Positions 22,801 through 52,340 of a stretch of 64,000 bases of DNA are shown piece after piece (position 1 is the stretch's first letter; each line of letters opens with the position of its first letter). The notes below the pieces were generated by a model, which was given only the letters and a program-made list of their open reading frames with translations, had not been told where the DNA came from and did no database searches. The stretch is taken from contig CM052851.1 of the NCBI GenBank assembly GCA_028534125.1, forward strand, positions 558,001 through 622,000, written 5' to 3'. A program made the translations under genes and the position numbers. This DNA is from Lama glama (taxonomy: Eukaryota).

Positions 22801-25800
22801 CGGAGACACTGGACTGAGAGGCTGTGCTTGATGTGCTCTGGGGTCCAGGGGAAGAGGNNNNNNNNNNNNNNNNNNNNNNNNNNNNNNNNNNNNNNNNNNN
22901 NNNNNNNNNNNNNNNNNNNNNNNNNNNNNNNNNNNNNNNNNNNNNNNNNNNNNNNNNNNNNNNNNNNNNNNNNNNNNNNNNNNNNNNNNNNNNNNNNNNN
23001 NNNNNNNNNNNNNNNNNNNNNNNNNNNNNNNNNNNNNNNNNNNNNNNNNNNNNNNNNNNNNNNNNNNNNNNNNNNNNNNNNNNNNNNNNNNNNNNNNNNN
23101 NNNNNNNNNNNNNNNNNNNNNNNNNNNNNNNNNNNNNNNNNNNNNNNNNNNNNNNNNNNNNNNNNNNNNNNNNNNNNNNNNNNNNNNNNNNNNNNNNNNN
23201 NNNNNNNNNNNNNNNNNNNNNNNNNNNNNNNNNNNNNNNNNNNNNNNNNNNNNNNNNNNNNNNNNNNNNNNNNNNNNNNNNNNNNNNNNNNNNNNNNNNN
23301 NNNNNNNNNNNNNNNNNNNNNNNNNNNNNNNNNNNNNNNNNNNNNNNNNNNNNNNNNCCTGTCGTGCTGTCTTCTGGTTTCGGGCGTTCCGTGTGTCGTG
23401 TGTCCCAGGTGTTGGCTGTTTCGCTGGTCCATCCGTGGGTCGAGGACCCTGTAGAAACAGTGTTCGTGAGATCCCTGTCTCGCTGCGGTGCGCTCTGCCC
23501 TGTGGGCCATCCTCACCTTTGTTGTCTCCTTCTCACTTTTCGCTTTTGGCTGTACTTGGAGGGTCTGGGACTTTCCTGGATGACTCGCATTTCCCGTGGC
23601 CCCCCAGTCATTCTGTCTCATTCCTTGTTGCATGTCACATGGTAGTGGTGATTTTCGGGGCCCCTTCCTGCAGTCCTGGGTGGCTGTTGTCCCCTCAGCC
23701 TGATTCTCAGGGCATCCTTCCCTAATGGTACCCCGGCCACTGACCTGGGGACACGGCTTCCGTTCTTGCCTTGGGTCTGGGGGACCAGAGTTTTGTGGCC
23801 CAGGCTGAGCGCTGGGGCCTGCACTTGGGTAACGTGTTGTTGGCAGCCCTCGCCCCGCCTCCGGGGCCCGTGGGCCGCCCGGGCTGTAGTGGTGCTGGAG
23901 GTGTGTGCGAGGGGCATGCTTGTGGAGAAGAGCTGTCCCCCTCTGTTGGGCCGAGCCCAGCCTGTGTGTTTGCCATGCATCCCCAGACAGCTCAGGCTGG
24001 GTGTTGGGGCTGCTCTGCCACGACCCCTGCAGGGACCCAGAGTGGGCACGTGCTTACTCGAGGGCGGCCCTGTGGAGGTCCCTGACGTCGCTGGGGCTGG
24101 CAGTGCTGTTGTGCGCACTGTGGACTGTGCTGTGGACTGTGTGGCTGCACTGATGGAGGAGGCTGTGGGCTGCGTTGTGGCCTGGGTCACTGTGGGTCCT
24201 GTGGCTGTTGTCCTTGCACTTGCTGTTGGTGCTGGCGCCGATGTGGCCCGTGTGGTGATAGCAGAGGTGGTTCTGGGTGACACTGCAGGGAACAGTATCC
24301 GGAACATCCCCTGTGACCCCGTCCTTGCTCTTGCAGGGCCCCTCTCCCACAGTGCAGCTCTACCTTGGGGCCTTACCTCCCTCAGAGAGTGTTGGCTCTT
24401 TCTGGGTGGTGGGGGCTGTCCCTGTGTGTATGGAGGAGAGGGCTGTGGCTCTGGCTGTGGCCACTGGTGTGGATGGGAGGCTGGAGGTCTGGATGGGGGC
24501 CTCAGGTGTGTCTGGGGAGCTTGACGAGGGTCTAGTGGAGTTGAGACCGATGGTGCTGGGCATGGTCGTGGTGGGCCTGGTGGCCGTGGCAGGAAGGCCT
24601 GAGTCGGGTAGTTGTGCTGTTAGTGTGGGGTGAGGGGCTGGCCCAGCACAGCCTTTGGGAGGAACCCCTCTCTAGCCTGTTGGGCCCCCAGGCCACATGG
24701 GCTGGGCAGGAGGCAGTGAGCTAGTGGCCCTGAGAGGGCAGCTTGAGTCCCAGCAGGGTAGGCTGGCGTCTCTGTGCACTGCCGTGCTCAGTGGCTCTGC
24801 AGCAGGGCCACCGTGGGTCCTGCCGTGCCCCCCGTGTCTGGCTTTCTGGTCAGCAGTGGCCGTTCCCGCAGGCACTGCAGCCCCAGGGACAGCCCAGGTA
24901 CGCTCCTTGCCCTGCCCCACACCCGCTGGCCCGGCTGCTGCTCCCACTGGGCTGACGGCCACAGGCTGGGCTGGCTGGGGGCTGTCCAGCAGAACAGGGA
25001 AGAGCCCTGGGGGGAGAGCCTGCTTCACCTTGGCACCTAGTATGTATGCAATCACCTGTTGTGGGCAGCGGCGTGGTAGGCGGCGGCACTGCAAGAGGAG
25101 GGGTGGTCAGGAGCGGTGCCCTTCCCCCTGCCCTGCTCCCTGCCCCCACCTGCCTGGGCCCTTCAGGGCCTTCAGGTGTGTCCCCAGAAGCGGAGAACCA
25201 GAGAGATGGAGCTACTGCAGAAGTGCCTGGACCCCTAATCCCTGCTCCCCTCCTCCCCATTGCCCTACCTCTGCATTGATGGGCCTGCCGGGGAGTGGAG
25301 GGGCCAGCCAGGGCTGTAGCCTGAAGGTAGCTGCAGGTGGTGTCCATCGCCCACCAGGCCACCTGTTGCTGAATTCCAAGGAGACCCCTGCTCTGCACGC
25401 ATACACCCCAGCAGGCTGGCAGGGCCCGGGTCTGCCCTGAAGCTGGAGACTGGGGGAGTGGATGTTTGGGAAGAGGGGAAGGGGAGGGGGCTCAGTCCTT
25501 TCCCCTGTCTCTGGCAGTCCTAGTCTCTGGGAGTCTCAGCACCCAGGGCAGAGCCCTGGGGAGTGGAGGTGCTGGCGGGCTGGGAGCTCTGTGCCAGAGC
25601 TGGGCGGCCCTGGGGGGCTGTCAGGCAGTCCCGAGCTTACTGCACGGCACACATGTTCCTTCATCTTGGTCGAAGTACTCGTCCTGAGAGCAGTTGTAGC
25701 AGCCTGGGGGTGGGGGTGCAGAGCGCGGCGGGACCTCAGTGCCTGCAGCCGGAAGCCCCATTCCCCAGGCCCAGTCCCTCCCCTCTCCGTCCTTCCGATG

Positions 25801-28800
25801 CAGCTCCCGCCCGCTGGGGTCCTGATGACTCCAGGCTGTTGCCCCTTCCTATCTCCTCTGTACCAGTACCTTCGATGTTGGTGCCCGGGAAGCCCTGCGG
25901 CCACGTGGGGCAGAGGCATGGCTGGTAGTGCCACGTACAGTTAGCCTCGTGGACGTACTGGTACTCGCCGCCCACCTGCACGTGGGTGTTGTAGAAGTCG
26001 CAGTAGACAGCTGGGAGGAAGGGCACCGTCAGCTGGCAGGGCCAGCCAGGGAGCCCGCACGTGGGCCCGGAAGGCTCAGGGTCCCCCTGGGGAGTCTCTC
26101 TGGGGGGCACAGCCCGCCGCCCGCCTGGCCCCTGGGCGGCCTGTGGGCAGGAGTGGGACACTCACGGCAGAAGTCTGGGGACCTCCAGTCCACGCACACG
26201 CCCTTGTCCACGCAGGCCTTGGCGTAGGCGGCCACGGCGTCGCACAGGCACTCGCAGTCTCCGCCGGTGTCACACCCACACGTGTCACGCACGCAGGCCT
26301 CGTAGTAGGGCAGGCGGTACACCTGGGGGAGCCGGCCCTCAGAGTCGGCCGCCCACACGCGGGGTGCTCGTGGCCCGGGTGGGGTCTGTGCTTGGTCCTT
26401 AGGACCGCTCTCCTGACCGCTGGGTCTGGAGCCACGCTGCCGCGAGGCGAGGCCCACACCAGGCCGGGTGTGCAGGGCTCACCTGGCTGTGGCAGGCGGC
26501 GAAGGTCTGGCTATTGATGATGGCGCACTTGCGCTCGGCCCAGGAGCGGCGGAAGGTGTTGAGGCTGCAGGGGTCCACGGCCCGCGTGGCGTCCCCGCAC
26601 AGCGGGCTCTCCTTCCAGGAGTTCACAAACTCTAGCTCGCTGGATGCCACATACTTGCTTCGGGTCTCGAAGTCGTCCTTCATGTTCCCGTTGTAGTTGC
26701 CGCACAGGCCACATAGGGCGTCCTGCGGGGGCGGCTGTCAGTGGGCGGCACAGCCCTCAATCCCGGCCGCGGGGAGGGGGCGGCAGATACCTGGGAGGCA
26801 CGTGCGATCTTGATGAAGAGGGTCATGTGCTTGTTCCAGATGAGGGTCAGGTTGTAGGCAGTGCCGACGGTGGCATCCAGCACCAGGTACAAGGAGCCGG
26901 CCTTCACCTGGAAGCGCACGCCGGGGTCCTCCCCGCTGACCGTGTAGTTCCTGTCTGCCAGCACGATGGACAGGCCCTGTGGGGCGCGGCCGTCACCAGC
27001 TGCCCGTCCAGGTCCTGGGCGGCCACTGAATGCCGCTGGGCTCTGCCTTGCCGTCTGAGTGCTCCACGGCTCAGCTCGCTCTGGGCTGGGGGCCTCCCGC
27101 TAGAGCCTGCCTTTGGCGGGTTTCAGAACGCCCTGGAAACTGTCCCGAGGGCTGGGAGGGGGCTTGTGGCAGAATCCCTCCTCTCTGCGTGGCTGTCCGG
27201 CTCCAGGGGACACTGCTGCCCCTGTGGGGACTAGAAGGCCTAGGCAGAGGGTGGCAAAGGCCCAGAGCGGCCAGGCCCTGGACCCCCAGGAAGTTGGGGA
27301 GACCCCACACACTCACCCCCAGGAGGACCGTGACAGCCCGCGAGCAGGTGACGCCTGACTTCCCACACACGACGTTCTCTGTCAGGATCTTGAAGGTGGG
27401 CTGTGAGTCGTTGGCACCACAGCCATCCTGTGGGAACAGGGCATAGAAGAGGATGCGGACCCTCTGCCCCACGCCCAGGCTGGCACTCACTGTGGCCCTG
27501 CGCCCCACGCCCCGTGCCCTACGCCCAGGCCGGCACTCACTGTGGCCCTGCGCCCCATGCCCCACGCCCAGGCTGGCACTCACTGTGGCCAGGATGTATT
27601 CGCAGTTGCCATCGAACACGAAACGCTGCCCATCGAAGGTGACTACGTGGCCCTCCCCGTAGAGGGTGCAGGTGGACGGGCAGTGGGTGCTCTGCTGGCA
27701 CGCCCATGTCCCCCCGGAGCAGGTGCTGTGGGACAGGTGGGCCGTGTCAGGGCTCTGGGGGGACCCCGGCACACGCACCCCTGCGGGGCCCTGACCACGT
27801 GGGTTAGCAGGGGCCCCTGCCCACCCCCGCCCCCAAGACTTGAGAACAGTTGGGCCACCAGGGTGTGCGGGTGGGGTGGCGGCTCACCAGCTCCTACAGC
27901 CGGTATGGAGCTCTGCGCCGCGGGGGTAGGAGGCGCCTGCAAACTCGCACGGGCAGTCCTCGGGGGGCACACACTGCCCGCTGGCGTTCTCGTAGAGCCC
28001 CTTGGCACAGACACAGCCGGCCTCACACTTGGTGGGCACCTGCAGGGAGGAGGGTGGGTGGCCCTGCTGGCTGCCGCCCCAGCTGGGCCCTTCTGAGACA
28101 CCCCCAGCATTCTTGCCAGACTTGCTCCCTGCAGCCAGCCTGCTCTGGGCCTCTCTTAGCAGAGCTGCCCCTCCCTGAGGGACTGGTCCAGTGCCTCTGC
28201 GTTGTGGCTGGGCTACTCTGTCCCCTCCCCAAGCTGGCCGGGGCCCCCGGCCCACAGTCCTCAGGGAGCCCCACAGATGAGCAACATGGTGGCCAGGCTG
28301 CCAGTCACACTCATCACAGGATGGTGGAGATGGGGCACGGCCCCCTTTCCTGCGGGGTGTGTGGAACTCCTCTGTGGGTCATGGAGAGGCTCTGGGGGTG
28401 TCCACCATGGGACTGTCCCACCCAAGTCTCCCCATGGCGTCCGCAGGCGGTGGGGATTGCCTTCCGGGGAAGGCTCGTCCCCTCCCTCTGCCCAGCCTTA
28501 CACAGGGGGTGCCAGTGGCCAACATCTGACAGGTGGGGGCGCAGGCAGCCCCAAATTTGTCCTCGGAGGACTGGCTGCAGGACTGGAATGTCTTGGGGGC
28601 CGAGCAGGTTGCTGCAGAGACACAGGGCCCGGGGTGAGGTAGGAGCCGAAGAGCCGGTGCCCGCAGTCCAGCTCCTCGAGCCTCGGCCCCGGCTACGCAC
28701 CCAAGAGCATCTGAGGCTGGGCCCGGCAGCTCAGGCGCCCGTTGGAGCAGTGGCTGTGGGAGAGAGGCCGTGTGAGTGTGCCGCCCTGGGCTGGGCTGCA

Positions 28801-31800
28801 GGCGGGTGGCCGCCCGACCCCCTTGCTCACCAGATGACGCCATTGACCATGGTGGACTGGTCGGCCAGGATGAACTTGGAGTTGTCCAGGAGGCAGGGGC
28901 ACTGGGACTTGCGCACACACTCAGTCTTGTGGTTCAGGTAGGTGCCCTCGGGGCAGTTGCAGCCGTCCACCGGCACGGCGCTAGGGTGGCACTCGACCTC
29001 GCGGTCGGACAGCGAGAGGCACGTGCGGTCACATGCCCGGCTGTCGTAGCTGAAAGTCTGATTGCCCGTGCAGGGGGTGGCTGCAGGGGACCCGGAGTCA
29101 GGCCCTCGAGGAGGTGGTCCCCGGCCGCCCGCCCACCTGCCCAGCCGGCACGCCCCCTGCCCGCACGCCCCCTGCCCGCACACCCCCTGCCCGCACGCAC
29201 TGCAGTTGTCCACGCTGCTCCTCCAGCCCTGGAGCAGGACGCCCCGCGAGGCGCAGGCGAGGGCGTAGTCACCCAGGGCGGCGCAGATGTGTGGGAAGGT
29301 CTCCTCGTAGTTGCAGGCCTGGTACACGCACCTCTGCGGGCAGACAGTGGCTGTGGGCACCCACCCTCCTGCCCGGCCAAGACCCCTGAGGGTGCAGCCC
29401 TGTGACGCCCCTGCTGCCCACGGGCCTACCCACCTTGTGGAAGGGCTTGGGGTCCACAGTGGCGTGGCACTTCTCGAATACTGAGCCCTCCTTCACCAGC
29501 ACTGCACAGTGGGTCTCCGCACATACCTCTGGGGTACAGGCCGGCGTGAGTCAGCTGCCTGCCCGGGGCTCCTGCCCACCCCTTCCCCCCAGCCCCCCAG
29601 CGACACTCACTGTTGAGCTGGCTCATGGAGCAGGGGTCAGTCTCACGCTCAAGTGCGGCCGGGCAGTTCCCTGCTCGCCAGGAGTCCACGAAGACCGAGG
29701 CAGTGCCCTCAGCGATGCCCATGCTGGTCGTGAAGTCGTCCGTCGTGTCCCCGTTGAAGTTTCCGCAGAGCCCTGGGCCAGCCAGACGTGAGGGTGGGCT
29801 GGTCTGTGCCCCTGTCCTGCCCCACACTCTCCAAAGGCCCTTACTCCTGAACCCCGCCCAGTGCAAGGGGCCAGCACTGCGACACCCGTGGGAAGGCCAG
29901 ATAGAACTGGCCTGGGGCCCAGAGCGCTGGCTGTGCTGGGTCAGCATGAGGCTCTGCTGGGCCCTTCTCTTCCGAAATCCGGGGTGGGGACAGAGCAGCT
30001 GGGCCGACGCGGGGCAGACGGAGGAGGGGCTCACCTCTGGTCTGGCCTCTGAAGTGGGGCCCAACAGTGACATACAGCTGGAACACGGGCCAGAGCTGGA
30101 TCACCAGTTCCAGCCCGAAGGTGGTGACCATCTGGACGTGGGTGGAGGATTGCCTGAAGACTGTGATATTGCCTGAGGGGACAGGGGGCTCAGCAGGGGG
30201 CCTGCTTTGGGACCCGCTCAGTGAGGCCCCAGGGCCAGGTGGGTGCTGAGGACTTACGAGTCTTGTACGGCAGCCACTTGGTGTCCCCGTGGTTGGTGAC
30301 CACCTCGTCCTGAGAAATGACGATCTTGTCCTGGAGGGAGGGAGGCCTGAGTCAGGGGGGCCGTGAGTGGGGGAGGCCAGGCAGGGTGAAGCAGCAGCTG
30401 GGACCCATCTGCCTGGGGATCTGGGGTGGGCGCCCAGCTGCAGGGCGAGGTGGCCTCACCTGGTTGGACAGGTAGATGATGGCGACCAGGGAGGTCTCCG
30501 AGTGCGAGTACCCAGACTTGTCGTACACGGCCATGAGTGAGCCCCCGTCGGGCAGCTGGGGGCTCTGGGAGGAGGGGCAGCTCAGCACAGAGGGCCCAGG
30601 GTGCTCGTGGCGGGGCCCCTGCCCCGCGGCGGGCCCCCAGGTGGAGGCTGCGTCCTACCTGAAGGAGGATGTAGGTGCAGGTGCCGTGGAAGCGGTAGGG
30701 CCTGGCATCGAACGTGGTGACAAAGGAGCCTCCCTCCAGAGCGCAGCGCCTGGGACAGGACTGCTCCGCACACTCCCAGTGGCCCCCGGAGCACCGGCTG
30801 CGGGCAGGGAGGCGTGACCCAGCTGGCCCCCAGGGCTGAGGCCGCCCCGCCTCCGGCTCTCCTGTCCTGTCCTGCCTGCATGCCCCTCTAGGTGTCCTGC
30901 ACTCACCAGGTCTGGCAGGCGGCTGTTGTGACCTCCCCGGGGGCGTAGACCACCCCACTGAGCACGCAGGGGCACTGGGAGACGGGCAGGCAGGTGTGGT
31001 TTGCAGAGATGTCATCCAGAACCGTACCTGCAGGAGAGAGGCTTCCTGGGGCTTCCCTCCTGCTGGGCAGCCTTCCCCAGCCTGTGCTGCGGACCGCCCC
31101 AGGAGAGCCTCCACCTTCAGCCCCACTGGCCTGGCAGCCTCCCGCCCTCCTGGTGCTGAGTGCTGCGCCTGGTGGGCGGCAGGCCCTGTCCAGCTCAGAC
31201 CCTGCCTCTGCCCACCCCCTTGCTCCCCACAGAACAGCCCCTGGGCAGTTGGGAGCAGTGGCGGCCAAGCCCTCCCCGGCGCAAGTCCCAGCAATGTCTG
31301 GGGAGAGTAGGTCCTGGCTCCAGGCCTCTGGGTGGTGCAGGGGCTGATGCCCTGTCTCTGGGCTCATTCTGAGGGTCCTGGGAGAGTGGCTGCCCTCACC
31401 TTCTGGGCAGAAGCAGCCAAAGGTGCAGAAGCTGGAGCAGCTGTGCTGGGGGTTGGAGCAGGTCCGAATGCAGGTCTCGCCGCACTCCCGGTACACCTGG
31501 GTGGCCGGGCACTGGCCCACGGCTGCAGGCCCGTGGCCGCCCCGGTGAGAGGGGCTGGGGCGGCCCAGGGCCCCACCACCCAGCCCTCCCTGGCCCAGGA
31601 TGTGGCCAGCCCCCCTCCCCGCAGGGCTTCTCTGTCTCCTGGATGGAGTGGACAAAGGAGGATTTGGAACACAGTGTCTGGGACCCTGCCCCGCGCCATC
31701 CGCAGGACTCACAGCAGAGGTCAGGGCCGCGCCAGCTGTGGACGGGCTGGCCGGCCATGCTGCACTGCCGCGAGTACTCAGACAGCGTGGCGCAGGCGCA

Positions 31801-34800
31801 GTCCTGCCGGCCCGGCTGGGCGCACACGGCCATGTCCTCCTGGCAGCCCAGCAGGAATGGCTCCCGGGACACGTTGCACTCGGGGGACACCAGGGTCAGC
31901 AGCTGGATGCAGGTCTGGGCCTGGGCACAGGGCCACTCAGGGTCATGAAGGTCGAGGCCGTGTCCCACACCACACGTGTGACTTGGAAGGCTGGGGGTGT
32001 CGTTGCCCTCGGCGACCCTGTCAGACCCTGTGGGCTGGCCCTGCCCCTGCTGAAGGGCCCCTCTGACCCCGGGGAGCCTGAGTCCTCACATACGTGCTCT
32101 GCCTGCAGGGCCTGGGGGCGGGGGACGGCCTCATGGGCACAGATCTCGTTGGGGTCATCCAGCTTCTGGAGAGCGGCGTACTTGTGGGGCTCCAGGAGTT
32201 TGCCTGGGGGCGGAATGGGGTGGGTCAGCACTGTGGGCGCAGGGCCACAGGGCGGTCTGGGCCCCACCCCACCTACCGTCCTCGCTTAGAAACTCATCGG
32301 TCTCTTCGCCATCGAAGTTCCCACACAGTCCACACATCCTGCCCATGTACCTCTTCTCCACCAGGACCTGGAGGGGCCGGGTGCTGCTGTCAGGGGGCGG
32401 GAAGGGCACAGGGCCCCCCGGGCCCCAGGACCCCTGGCCCAGCCGCTGAGGCTGCTCTCGCCTGCTCCAGGGCCCGGAGACCCCTCACAGGCAGGTTGGG
32501 GTCCAGGGACTGCCCGCCCCCACTCCCGGCACCTCTCGTGCTCTCTAGGTTGTCCTCTTTTTCAAGTGAGGACACAGCTGCCACAAAGCCCACGCCCTGT
32601 CCCAGAGGGCCACTCCCCACCCCTGCCGCATCCTCACCATGAGGTGGGCGCCCGGTCCCCACATGACCACCAGCTCCAGCTCCAGCTGCTTGGCCACCAG
32701 CTGCACGCTCTGGCCGAAGGGTGTGATCTGGAGGCCGTTGCTGGTGTAGGGCAGGCTGACGACCCTGTGGGGCATGAGCAGTCAGCGGCCGCTCCCTCGG
32801 GCCCCCGCCGCCCGGCCCGGTCCCACGGCCTACCCCACGTCCTTGACGGAGATGACTGCCTTCTGCACGGTGACCACGGAGACCCCCAGCTCCACGATGA
32901 TCCGGGAGATGTTCCCGCTGGGCCCTCGCCGCAGCTGGACACTGAAGACGGATGAGGCGTCCTCACAGACGGCCGCGAAGACATAGTTGCAGGTCCCCAA
33001 AAAGTCGTACACGTGGCCGTCGAAGGTGGAGAAGTGGCCGGCCCCCCAGGTGGAGCACCGGCCCCCATCTGCCGCTGTGGAGAGGGGGCGGGGTCTCAGA
33101 GCCCTCCTGGGGTTGGGGGGAGGAAGGCCTACCCCCATCCAGCTCTGGGCTGGGGTCTGCCTCCCACACCAAGCCTTATGGGAGTGCAGGCCTCTGTCTT
33201 GGTTGGGGTCTGTAGGGTGTGAAGCTGCAGGTCAGCCCCCATCCTGCAGGACCCCCGCCCCTCTTGGCAGCATGGGTGTGCCTCCCCCGGGTGAGGGGTC
33301 GGCTCAGCTCCTTCTGTAGCTGAAGCCCCTCGCGGAAGCCCCAGACCACAACCACCCTGTGACGGGGTGTGGCCTGGTACTCGGGGCAGCTCCCGAGGAC
33401 AGGAGGATGCCCGTGCCCTTTACCTGACTGCCAAGAGTCCTTCAGCCTCCGGAGGCCTGGGGTCACCAAGGGTCTGTCACCCAGACCTGCGTGGACAGGG
33501 CCTGCGGTCAGTGTGGGACGGCCCCCCTCTGCCGAGGCCGCAGCGGTCAGCTTGGCCGGGCTGAGCCGGGCCTGGGGCTGTGGGGGCGCTGTGCTTCCCA
33601 CGCTCTGCCTTCCCTCTGGTCCTTCCCTCAGTCACCACGGAGGGGCCTGAGCGATCACCTGCTGGCCTGGGGACACAGTGGGAACAAAGCCCTACCCCCA
33701 GAGCCCCCCCAGGGAGGCCGAGTGCACAGGGGCAGTGAGAGAAGCCTGAGGGTGAGGAGGCCGGGAAGTGTCTAGGGGGCGGGAGTCAGCGTGTGGGCCT
33801 CGGGGCAGGCTGGGCGGGCAGGAGTCCTCCGGCTCCCCGGCTCCTGCTGGTGCCCGCCGGGCTCCGGGGGCTCTGGGCTGTCACTCGCTGTCTCTCAAGA
33901 TGCTCCAGGCCCTTGGGGTTCGACAAGGAAAACCAGTGCTGGACAGACAGGCGGGCATCTGATAAACAGGCTCACGGTCCTGCTCGCTCCCCGTGGGCTC
34001 ACGTGGGCCTGGGCCGGCTGGGCAGCTGGGCTCCCCTGTGGGCCTCATGGGTGGCAGGTGGAGAGCCCCAGCCTAGCGGGGCTGGGTGGACTGCGAGTGT
34101 GGGGGGCCCGGGCGTCTGTGGTGTGAGTTGGCTGAGGTTGTGTGTGGCTGGCCGCCTGGTCTCCCCCTGGGGTCGGGGAGGCCGAGAGAGGCCGGAGGCT
34201 CCCCAGAGGGCTTCTCCCTCCCCCGTGGCCCAGATTACCGTTCTGTCACTCCCTTCCTCCCCGTCAGCCTCCCAGACAGTCCTGGGACTGTGCTGGCCAT
34301 TGCCAGAGGATTGCCGGGACACTGGTCATGGTGACTGCGGGGGAGCACCGGCCCCGCCTCCCGTGCCTGCCCTGCTGCAGCCCTTCCTCGGCCCCCGTGC
34401 TGGCGGGCTGCAGGTTCATTGGCTAAGTGCAGGCCCTGGGGTCCTGGTCCTCCTGCCCACCCCCAACCCTGCCCCTTCGCCTCAGCTCTGTGGGTCCACA
34501 GTGCTGGTGGTGTTTCCCTGGGTGACACCAGGGAGCAGGGGCGCCTGCCAGGTGGCTGCAGGGTCCCCACGCTGGGCGGACGGTGACACCTGGCCCTGCC
34601 CTCCTCCTCTGCAGCACTGACTCGCAGATCCATGTCTGGGGCCCTTCTCTAGGCTCACCACTGCCCACCTCGATGCCCGGAGTCACTCCCCAGCCCCCAC
34701 GCGGTGGCCCCGCTGCTGCTCCCCCTCGTCCGGTCTCCTGTCCTCTGCTCTGCCTAGTCCCTACCCGGCCAGCATGGGTGTGCCTCCCCCGGGTGAGGGG

Positions 34801-51524: not shown

Positions 51525-52024
51525 NNNNNNNNNNNNNNNNNNNNNNNNNNNNNNNNNNNNNNNNNNNNNNNNNNNNNNNNNNNNNNNNNNNNNNNNNNNN
51601 NNNNNNNNNNNNNNNNNNNNNNNNNNNNNNNNNNNNNNNNNNNNNNNNNNNNNNNNNNNNNNNNNNNNNNNNNNNNNNNNNNNNNNNNNNNNNNNNNNNN
51701 NNNNNNNNNNNNNNNNNNNNNNNNNNNNNNNNNNNNNNNNNNNNNNNNNNNNNNNNNNNNNNNNNNNNNNNNNNNNNNNNNNNNNNNNNNNNNNNNNNNN
51801 NNNNNNNNNNNNNNNNNNNNNNNNNNNNNNNNNNNNNNNNNNNNNNNNNNNNNNNNNNNNNNNNNNNNNNNNNNNNNNNNNNNNNNNNNNNNNNNNNNNN
51901 NNNNNNNNNNNNNNNNNNNNNNNNNNNNNNNNNNNNNNNNNNNNNNNNNNNNNNNNNNNNNNNNNNNNNNNNNNNNNNNNNNNNNNNNNNNNNNNNNNNN
52001 NNNNNNNNNNNNNNNNNNNNNNNN
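51525..52024. other. Assembly gap (500 N)
   Basis: Run of exactly 500 n. Confidence 0.99.
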
Positions 52025-52340
52025 GACTGACACCTGTGACTGACCCCGTGACTGACCCCTGTGACTGACACCTGTGACTGACCCCGTGACTGACACCTGT
52101 GACTGACCCCTGCAACTGACACCTGTGACTGACCCTGTGACTGACCCCGTGACTGACACCTGTGACTGACCCTGTGACTGGCACCTGTGACTGGCACCTG
52201 TGACTGACCCCGTGACTGACCCCGTGACTGACCCCGTGACTGACCCTGTGACTGACCCCGTGACTGACACCTGTGACTGACCCCTGCGACTGACACCTGT
52301 GACTGACCCCTGCGACTGACACCTGTGTCTGAACACCTGT
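52025..52340. repeat. 12/13-bp minisatellite (GTGACTGACCCC / GTGACTGACACCT), truncated by gap
   Basis: About 24 variant units visible. Confidence 0.95.

What the first reader, a model, noticed from the sequence alone, without database searches (positions are those of the whole stretch)
27428..27590. Minisatellite has triplicated the MUC6 exon 21 donor site
Seen: GGCCACA|GTGAGTGCC (minus strand) occurs three times, with exon ends at 27584 (true), 27541 (+43 nt, frameshift) and 27491 (+93 nt, in frame, +31 aa, leaving a 63-nt intron). The whole 156-nt intron is also in frame and stop-free. The competing donors are identical and sit in the VWD3 polymerisation domain. Inference: repeat copy number could act as a heritable dial on productive MUC6 splicing, with minimum intron size suppressing the downstream copies.
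Basis: partly seen in the sequence, partly recalled or inferred. Interest (0 to 1): 0.7.

Follow-up and report, generated by a model that had tools for sequence, protein, structure and literature searches.

The report
Triplicated splice donor in camelid MUC6
The end of one exon of a camelid stomach-mucin gene, splice signal included, is repeated three times in a row, but the repeat is likely old and fixed and the cell likely uses only the first signal, as in several known human genes, so it is probably an ordinary tolerated duplication rather than a heritable dial.

Summary
It is no assembly artefact: the repeat loop is letter-identical in 3 of 3 DNA runs from three organism labels. Those runs show no copy-number variation (depth ratios 1.41, 1.95, 2.07; 2.0 expected for three copies on both chromosomes). 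Camel-type sequences carry the first and last copies too, so the duplication is probably older than the camel/llama split (~16 My). That argues against a heritable dial. The layout is known: human F7, CBS, 6-16, LMNB2, PDGFA and amphioxus 'mirages'; F7 minigenes use only the first donor. Here each unit also places 4-5 G-runs ahead of the pseudo-donors (true donors: at most 2), which would silence them. Intron size cannot silence the second donor (113 nt). An in-frame, stop-free intron is unremarkable (3 of 26). Donor usage itself could not be measured: the one RNA run laid gave nothing. This scan noted the same layout before in other genomes, including camelid CUL2. Verdict: new member of a known kind, low interest.

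The parts
27584..27725 (-). MUC6 exon 21 (142 nt), start of the VWD3 domain
   Evidence: match to MUC2 D3
27428..27583 (-). Intron 21, 156 nt, phase 0, in frame and stop-free, GT-AG
27548..27590 (-). Repeat copy 1 (43 nt): last 7 exon bases, authentic donor D1 (cut after 27584), two 7-nt G-rich sub-units
   Evidence: D1 is the junction of 6 of 6 named Camelus models
27498..27547 (-). Repeat copy 2 (50 nt): pseudo-donor D2 (cut after 27541, +43 nt, frameshift), three 7-nt sub-units
27465..27497 (-). Repeat copy 3 (partial; 33 nt identical to copy 1): pseudo-donor D3 (cut after 27491, +93 nt, in frame, 63-nt residual intron), one 7-nt sub-unit
27546..27569 (-). Four G-runs (G-quadruplex consensus), with CCTGGG at its start, between D1 and D2; predicted enhancer of D1 and silencer of D2
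   Evidence: sequence, counts; function inferred
27496..27526 (-). Five G-runs (G-quadruplex consensus), with CCTGGG at its start, between D2 and D3; predicted silencer of D3
   Evidence: sequence, counts; function inferred
27428..27460 (-). Pyrimidine tract and 3' splice site; candidate branch adenosines at -27 and -17, neither with a consensus
27317..27427 (-). MUC6 exon 22 (111 nt)
26511..26513 (-). First stop codon (exon 24) of the frame reached if D2 were used

Best explanation
A stretch made of the last 7 bases of MUC6 exon 21, its donor and the G-rich start of the intron is tandemly repeated to give three identical donors; the duplication is likely old and fixed in camelids, and the spliceosome likely uses the first donor almost exclusively, so the extra copies would be silent passengers. 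Shown: the anatomy, the intact gene, identity of the loop in three DNA runs. Inferred: origin by slippage or unequal exchange at short likeness between the exon end and a G-rich stretch of the intron, before camels and llamas split; upstream-first selection as in F7; G-runs and CCTGGG in each unit that would enhance D1 and silence D2 and D3; steric crowding that would further weaken D3; nonsense-mediated decay that would remove any D2 leak.
For: Loop of 120 nt with 0 differences and no branch in 3 of 3 DNA runs of organisms A, B, E; shared 33-mer/loop depth 1.41, 1.95, 2.07, all compatible with 2.0, and a 1/3 heterozygote rejected in each (p 0.007, 0.029, 0.008, rough Poisson). Unnamed ORFs with camel-type exon residues carry copy 1 up to the junction with copy 2 (P0123, P0147) and copy 3 (P0127) in register with the window; Camelini/Lamini split 15.8-16.3 My (PMC5577142, passages). 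6 of 6 named Camelus models join at D1; the junction is gap-free in 48 of 48 aligned MUC6 proteins. F7 minigenes: identical pseudo-donors are functional but only the most upstream is used (PMC1557585). G-runs in the 43 nt upstream: D1 0, D2 4, D3 5; 26 true donors mean 0.58, maximum 2. Silencers between competing sites inhibit the intron-proximal one, CCTGGG being a frequent silencer hexamer (PMC2095810, passages); G-triplets activate the upstream donor (PMC4463651 section 10).
Against: No junction count was obtained. In 2 of the 5 human cases that PMC1557585 lists (6-16, CBS) the nearest pseudo-donors are used too. The donors are identical from -7 to +9 and equally accessible by folding. This is a short intron in a GC-rich gene, where intron definition could favour the donor nearer the acceptor (recalled); F7's intron context may differ. 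G-rich introns of 37-65 nt are spliced (PMC4463651, abstract) and this gene has 68- and 69-nt introns, so D3 is not excluded by size. Only 3 of 14 DNA holders were laid, as contigs, which drop rare alleles; longer alleles (3/5 or 5/5) are not excluded in X1 and X5, and 3/5 not in X10. Named protein models partly rest on homology. The camel evidence is back-read from unnamed ORFs, not from DNA.
Confidence: 0.75

Rival explanations
1. Fixed leak: the array is invariant but D2 (and a little D3) is used at a minor constant rate, as in human CBS and 6-16. D2 transcripts would be degraded by NMD and trim MUC6 output; D3 would add 31 residues with an extra cysteine to VWD3.
For: Identical donors with equal predicted accessibility; D2 leaves a normal 113-nt intron; precedent in 2 of 5 listed human genes; the D2 stop lies in exon 24 with many junctions downstream.
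Against: G-run load upstream of D2/D3 lies outside the range of 26 of 26 true donors; F7 result; no protein with the D3 or retained-intron peptide among the hits (120 of 182 listed; 26 of 26; 0; 1, unrelated).
Confidence: 0.18
2. Heritable dial: copy number varies between animals and sets the share of productive MUC6 mRNA.
For: Tandem repeats do affect splicing in humans (9537 such repeats, PMC10078293, abstract and passages); unit lengths differ by a 7-nt sub-unit, so the array has changed in the past; X1's depth ratio of 1.41 also fits a longer allele.
Against: No variation in 3 of 3 runs from three organism labels; only 2.7 impure copies; first and last copies shared with camel-type sequence; adding copies downstream does not change first-donor use in F7, which has 5-9 copies. 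It needs both polymorphism and pseudo-donor use; neither was seen.
Confidence: 0.04
3. Coding read-through: the in-frame, stop-free intron is retained on purpose and inserts 52 residues into VWD3.
For: 156 nt, no stop; 13 of 146 related proteins read through the orthologous intron, 26-39 residues.
Against: 3 of 26 introns of this 67-81% GC gene are in frame and stop-free. The 13 are 11 unnamed ORFs and 2 gene models, visible only because their intron is open, with poorly conserved peptides; 5 other ORFs (P0125, P0132, P0138-P0140) change frame across it. The camel-type ORFs end at the second copy, which fits a stop there (or a contig end).
Confidence: 0.02
4. Assembly artefact.
For: Fragmented assembly (1,072,352 contigs).
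Against: The same 120-nt loop with 0 differences in 3 of 3 DNA runs from three studies; the copies differ from each other in length and letters.
Confidence: 0.01

Closest known systems
Human F7 intron 7 37-bp minisatellite (PMC1557585; read: abstract, introduction, result section 6, discussion)
   Same: First unit spans the exon/intron boundary; downstream donors identical to the true one; similar unit size (37 against 43-50 nt).
   Different: F7 is polymorphic with 5-9 units; here 2.7 impure units with no variation seen. Here the array fills most of a 156-nt intron and the last donor is only 63 nt from the acceptor. F7 usage was measured, this one not.
Human CBS intron 13, 6-16 (IFI6) intron 2, LMNB2 and PDGFA arrays (known only from the introduction and reference list of PMC1557585; originals not read)
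   Same: Reiterated donor in a tandem array; LMNB2's array also covers most of its intron.
   Different: 10-25 copies; CBS and 6-16 use the nearest pseudo-donors, LMNB2 and PDGFA only the true one. Which pattern MUC6 follows is untested.
Amphioxus 'mirage' repeats (PMC3087553; read: passages)
   Same: Tandem duplicates of an exon-intron boundary, as few as two copies (BflGb9); reported not to disturb regular splicing.
   Different: Mirages show length instability between haplotypes; none seen here. Different lineage.
Splicing-associated tandem repeats, spl-TRs (PMC10078293; read: abstract start and passages)
   Different: Defined by a length-splicing association in a population; neither length variation nor association is shown here.

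Membership tests
Boundary-spanning tandem repeat (F7-type / mirage) | Head-to-tail units whose first unit spans an exon-intron boundary | tested here: met
   units of 43, 50 and a partial 33 nt; the first holds the last 7 exon bases
Boundary-spanning tandem repeat (F7-type / mirage) | The true splice site is reiterated intact in the intron | tested here: met
   16 nt identical three times; the only one of 26 introns holding its own donor 9-mer again
Boundary-spanning tandem repeat (F7-type / mirage) | The most upstream donor dominates (typical, not universal) | tested here: inconclusive
   no RNA laid; 6 of 6 named Camelus models use D1, which is indirect
VNTR / splicing-associated tandem repeat | Copy number varies between individuals | tested here: inconclusive
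   none seen in 3 of 3 runs laid (3 of 14 holders), contigs only; longer alleles not excluded in all. Not filed as a VNTR
VNTR / splicing-associated tandem repeat | Repeat length is associated with splice-site use | not testable with these tools
   needs paired genotype and RNA reads
MUC6 (gel-forming mucin) | Orthologous, intact D1-D2-D'D3 coding region | tested here: met
   1198 codons, 0 stops, 1180-1181 identical to C. dromedarius and C. ferus mucin-6
Regulated unproductive splicing (AS-NMD switch) | The frameshifting donor is used, regulated and conserved | tested here: inconclusive
   D2 gives a premature stop; use not measured; the camel-type sequence differs at the D2 exon-side letters

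The most novel reading that the evidence does not exclude
Each repeat unit couples a donor to a G-quadruplex-forming G-run block, and the array has persisted for about 16 million years. It could be a camelid-specific unproductive-splicing rheostat: when hnRNP H/F is limiting or the quadruplex folds (stress, salt), D2 is used, the transcript goes to NMD and MUC6 output falls, without any need for copy-number variation.
Probability: 0.07. Interest if true: 0.5.

Novelty: new member of a known kind. Interest (0 to 1): 0.14.

Why it matters
As it most likely stands, little: one more boundary-spanning duplication, in a gene where none was found described (search 'MUC6 alpaca', and 'MUC6 camel splicing'; 5 and 9 papers listed, none on this intron by title or abstract start). 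It has modest value as a natural test: a 156-nt GC-rich intron with three identical donors sets upstream-first selection and G-run silencing against proximity to the acceptor, which the F7 model did not test in so short an intron. It is also a trap for gene prediction and short-read assembly. It would matter more if D2 use proved regulated, since MUC6 is strongly down-regulated in stressed Bactrian camel ileum (76 to under 0.5 FPKM, supplement of PMC7275387).

Tried and rejected
RNA test: run X18 laid 0 contigs on 27390-27650; the tool warns this can be false, so it is no evidence. Word shares: four RNA runs hold 0.31 of the words of 26700-28100; expected 0.34 for exons only, 0.37 with D2, 0.41 with D3, 0.48 with retention. 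This leans to normal splicing, but sampling error is about 0.04, SNPs lower all values and the animals' genotypes are unknown; not counted. DNA shares of 0.92-0.96 could have meant missing copies (single copy loses 6.6%, two copies 3.9%); one search showed the full loop in runs at 0.96, 0.94 and 0.93, so that was rejected. RNA structure hiding D2/D3: fold no better than shuffles (z +1.51), equal accessibility, and the quadruplex-aware fold did not choose a quadruplex; rejected as shown mechanism. AlphaFold of sheep MUC6: mean pLDDT 48, under 50 at the junction; strand ends at the junction but unreliable, so tolerance of the insert is open. Searches for the intron peptide: none; one hit, P0152, an unrelated repeat protein. 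Search of the own genome found only this locus and a paralogue at 76%. The camel splicing tables of PMC7275387 list genes by number and MUC6 nearly vanishes under stress, so they cannot test the donors (searched by term only). Three look-ups for two papers (the 6-16 paper; a 2023 VNTR study recalled from memory) found them not held. One search used an exon 23 start one base off; its downstream frames are superseded.

Full report
Observation. The 16-mer GGCCACA|GTGAGTGCC stands three times on the minus strand without a mismatch; shuffles give 0.23 matches even with two mismatches allowed, and 0 of 100 reach three. The cuts fall after 27584, 27541 and 27491; the acceptor is at 27428/27427. The intron is 156 nt, phase 0, 52 sense codons. 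Tandem Repeats Finder.7 copies of period 50, 86% matched. The units are 43 nt, 50 nt and a partial third; their lengths differ by a 7-nt G-rich sub-unit present two, three and one times; copies 1 and 3 share 33 identical letters.

Gene and organism. A 27-exon model built against dromedary mucin-6 gives 1198 codons without a stop; the exon is number 21. The window differs from C. dromedarius and C. ferus at 17-18 residues while those two differ at 2-3, so it is probably a New World camelid (inference). The junction lies in the third VWD domain, aligned to MUC2 823-905, three residues before a conserved cysteine, and is gap-free in 48 of 48 aligned proteins (48 chosen from 120). Six of six named Camelus models join at D1.

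What each donor would give. D2 adds 43 nt; the first stop is codon 1083 in exon 24, upstream of further junctions, so NMD would be expected (the NMD rule is established knowledge). D3 adds 31 residues and retention 52, each with one extra cysteine. Whether VWD3 tolerates that is open: the model was of low confidence there.

Real and apparently fixed. Fourteen DNA runs of five organism labels hold 92-96% of the words. I laid 3 of them (A, B, E; three studies). Each gave the same two pieces: a 120-nt loop (27468-27587) and the shared 33-mer, with no other letters or gaps. A two-copy allele would branch the loop; it is unbroken. The 33-mer should be twice as deep as the loop if both chromosomes carry three copies; observed 1.41, 1.95, 2.07. 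A rough Poisson test accepts 2.0 in all three, rejects 1/3 heterozygotes in all three, and rejects 5/5 only in X10, marginally. Flanking contigs were not returned, contigs drop rare alleles, and the best holder may be the assembly's own source, so this shows presence and no sign of variation, not invariance.

Age. Three unnamed Logan ORFs carry camel-type exon residues (QQSSHC, DGCSAND, as in the named Camelus proteins). P0123 and P0147 run from exon 21 through copy 1 to the junction with copy 2; P0127 starts at the donor of copy 3 and runs into exon 22, 95% identical to the window frame. The differences in copy 1 read as CpG decay on both sides (inference from back-translation). The simplest reading is that at least two copies predate the Camelini/Lamini split, 15.8-16.3 My (PMC5577142, passages). 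Both copy-1 ORFs end with Q where the window has H, which fits a stop at the second copy in camels or a contig end; I cannot tell which. The read-through peptides of whale and of other mammals (26-39 residues) show a single donor, so the duplication looks camelid-specific.

The open frame is ordinary. Of 26 modelled introns 8 are multiples of three, 10 are stop-free, 3 are both. Of 146 related proteins 107 have no insert at the junction, 13 read through the intron and 26 did not match my pattern; the 13 are visible only because their intron is open, and five other ORFs change frame across it.

Mechanism. The donors are identical from -7 to +9 and equally accessible by folding, so context decides. 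(1) Order: in F7 minigenes five identical pseudo-donors are functional yet only the most upstream intact one is used (PMC1557585; abstract, introduction, section 6, discussion read). (2) G-runs: the 43 nt upstream of D1 hold none, those of D2 four and of D3 five, each with CCTGGG and a quadruplex consensus; 26 true donors average 0.58, maximum 2. Silencers between competing sites inhibit the intron-proximal one (PMC2095810, passages) and G-triplets activate the upstream donor (PMC4463651, section 10). The same G-rich start marks 3 other short introns of this gene (3, 14, 16), so it is probably the intron's ancestral enhancer, copied along. (3) Size: candidate branch points lie 36 and 46 nt from D3, under the roughly 50 nt usually needed (recalled). 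But G-rich introns of 37-65 nt are spliced (abstract), this gene has introns of 68 and 69 nt, and D2's 113 nt exceeds 10 of 26 introns. Steps 1-3 are inferred, not shown for this gene.

Against this reading. My RNA test failed, so usage is unmeasured.

Comparison and novelty. It works like, and by anatomy belongs to, the boundary-spanning tandem repeats of F7, CBS, 6-16, LMNB2, PDGFA and the amphioxus mirages. It is not filed as a VNTR or splicing-associated repeat, since length variation was looked for and not seen. Earlier notes of this scan list the same layout in other genomes, one in camelid CUL2 (unchecked); none covers this locus. Two literature searches showed no paper on this intron by listing; one of them, PMC7275387, was read in passages and its supplement searched by term. 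Verdict: real, new member of a known kind, interest 0.14.

Noticed in passing
window 32765-32833 (intron 3) and 26723-26790 (intron 23), minus strand: Very short MUC6 introns of 69 and 68 nt; intron 3 is 80% GC with a quadruplex consensus, like the G-rich ultra-short class.
   Followed up: partly
window 29529-29610 (intron 14), minus strand: Same donor 9-mer as intron 21 (ACA|GTGAGT) followed by four G-runs in an 82-nt intron: a natural single-copy control for a minigene.
   Followed up: no
window 29081-29200 (intron 16) and 31028-31399 (intron 8), minus strand: Also in frame and stop-free; intron 16 is 81% GC, mostly a CCCG/15-nt repeat, with a weak GCA|GTGCGT donor.
   Followed up: no
window 52025-52340: About 25 copies of a 13-nt unit abutting a 500-N gap (51525-52024); probably a longer minisatellite that broke the assembly.
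   Followed up: no
window 22858-23357: 500-N gap inside the MUC6 PTS-coding region, so the gene's 3' part cannot be judged for integrity here.
   Followed up: no
P0001 and P0071: Gray whale and tammar wallaby mucin-6 models carry 32 and 27 extra residues at this junction, probably the intron read as coding by gene prediction.
   Followed up: partly
L002 (G000:C36:654737-654833, + strand): Paralogous exon at 76% identity on the opposite strand, about 70 kb away; probably MUC2 by position (inference).
   Followed up: no
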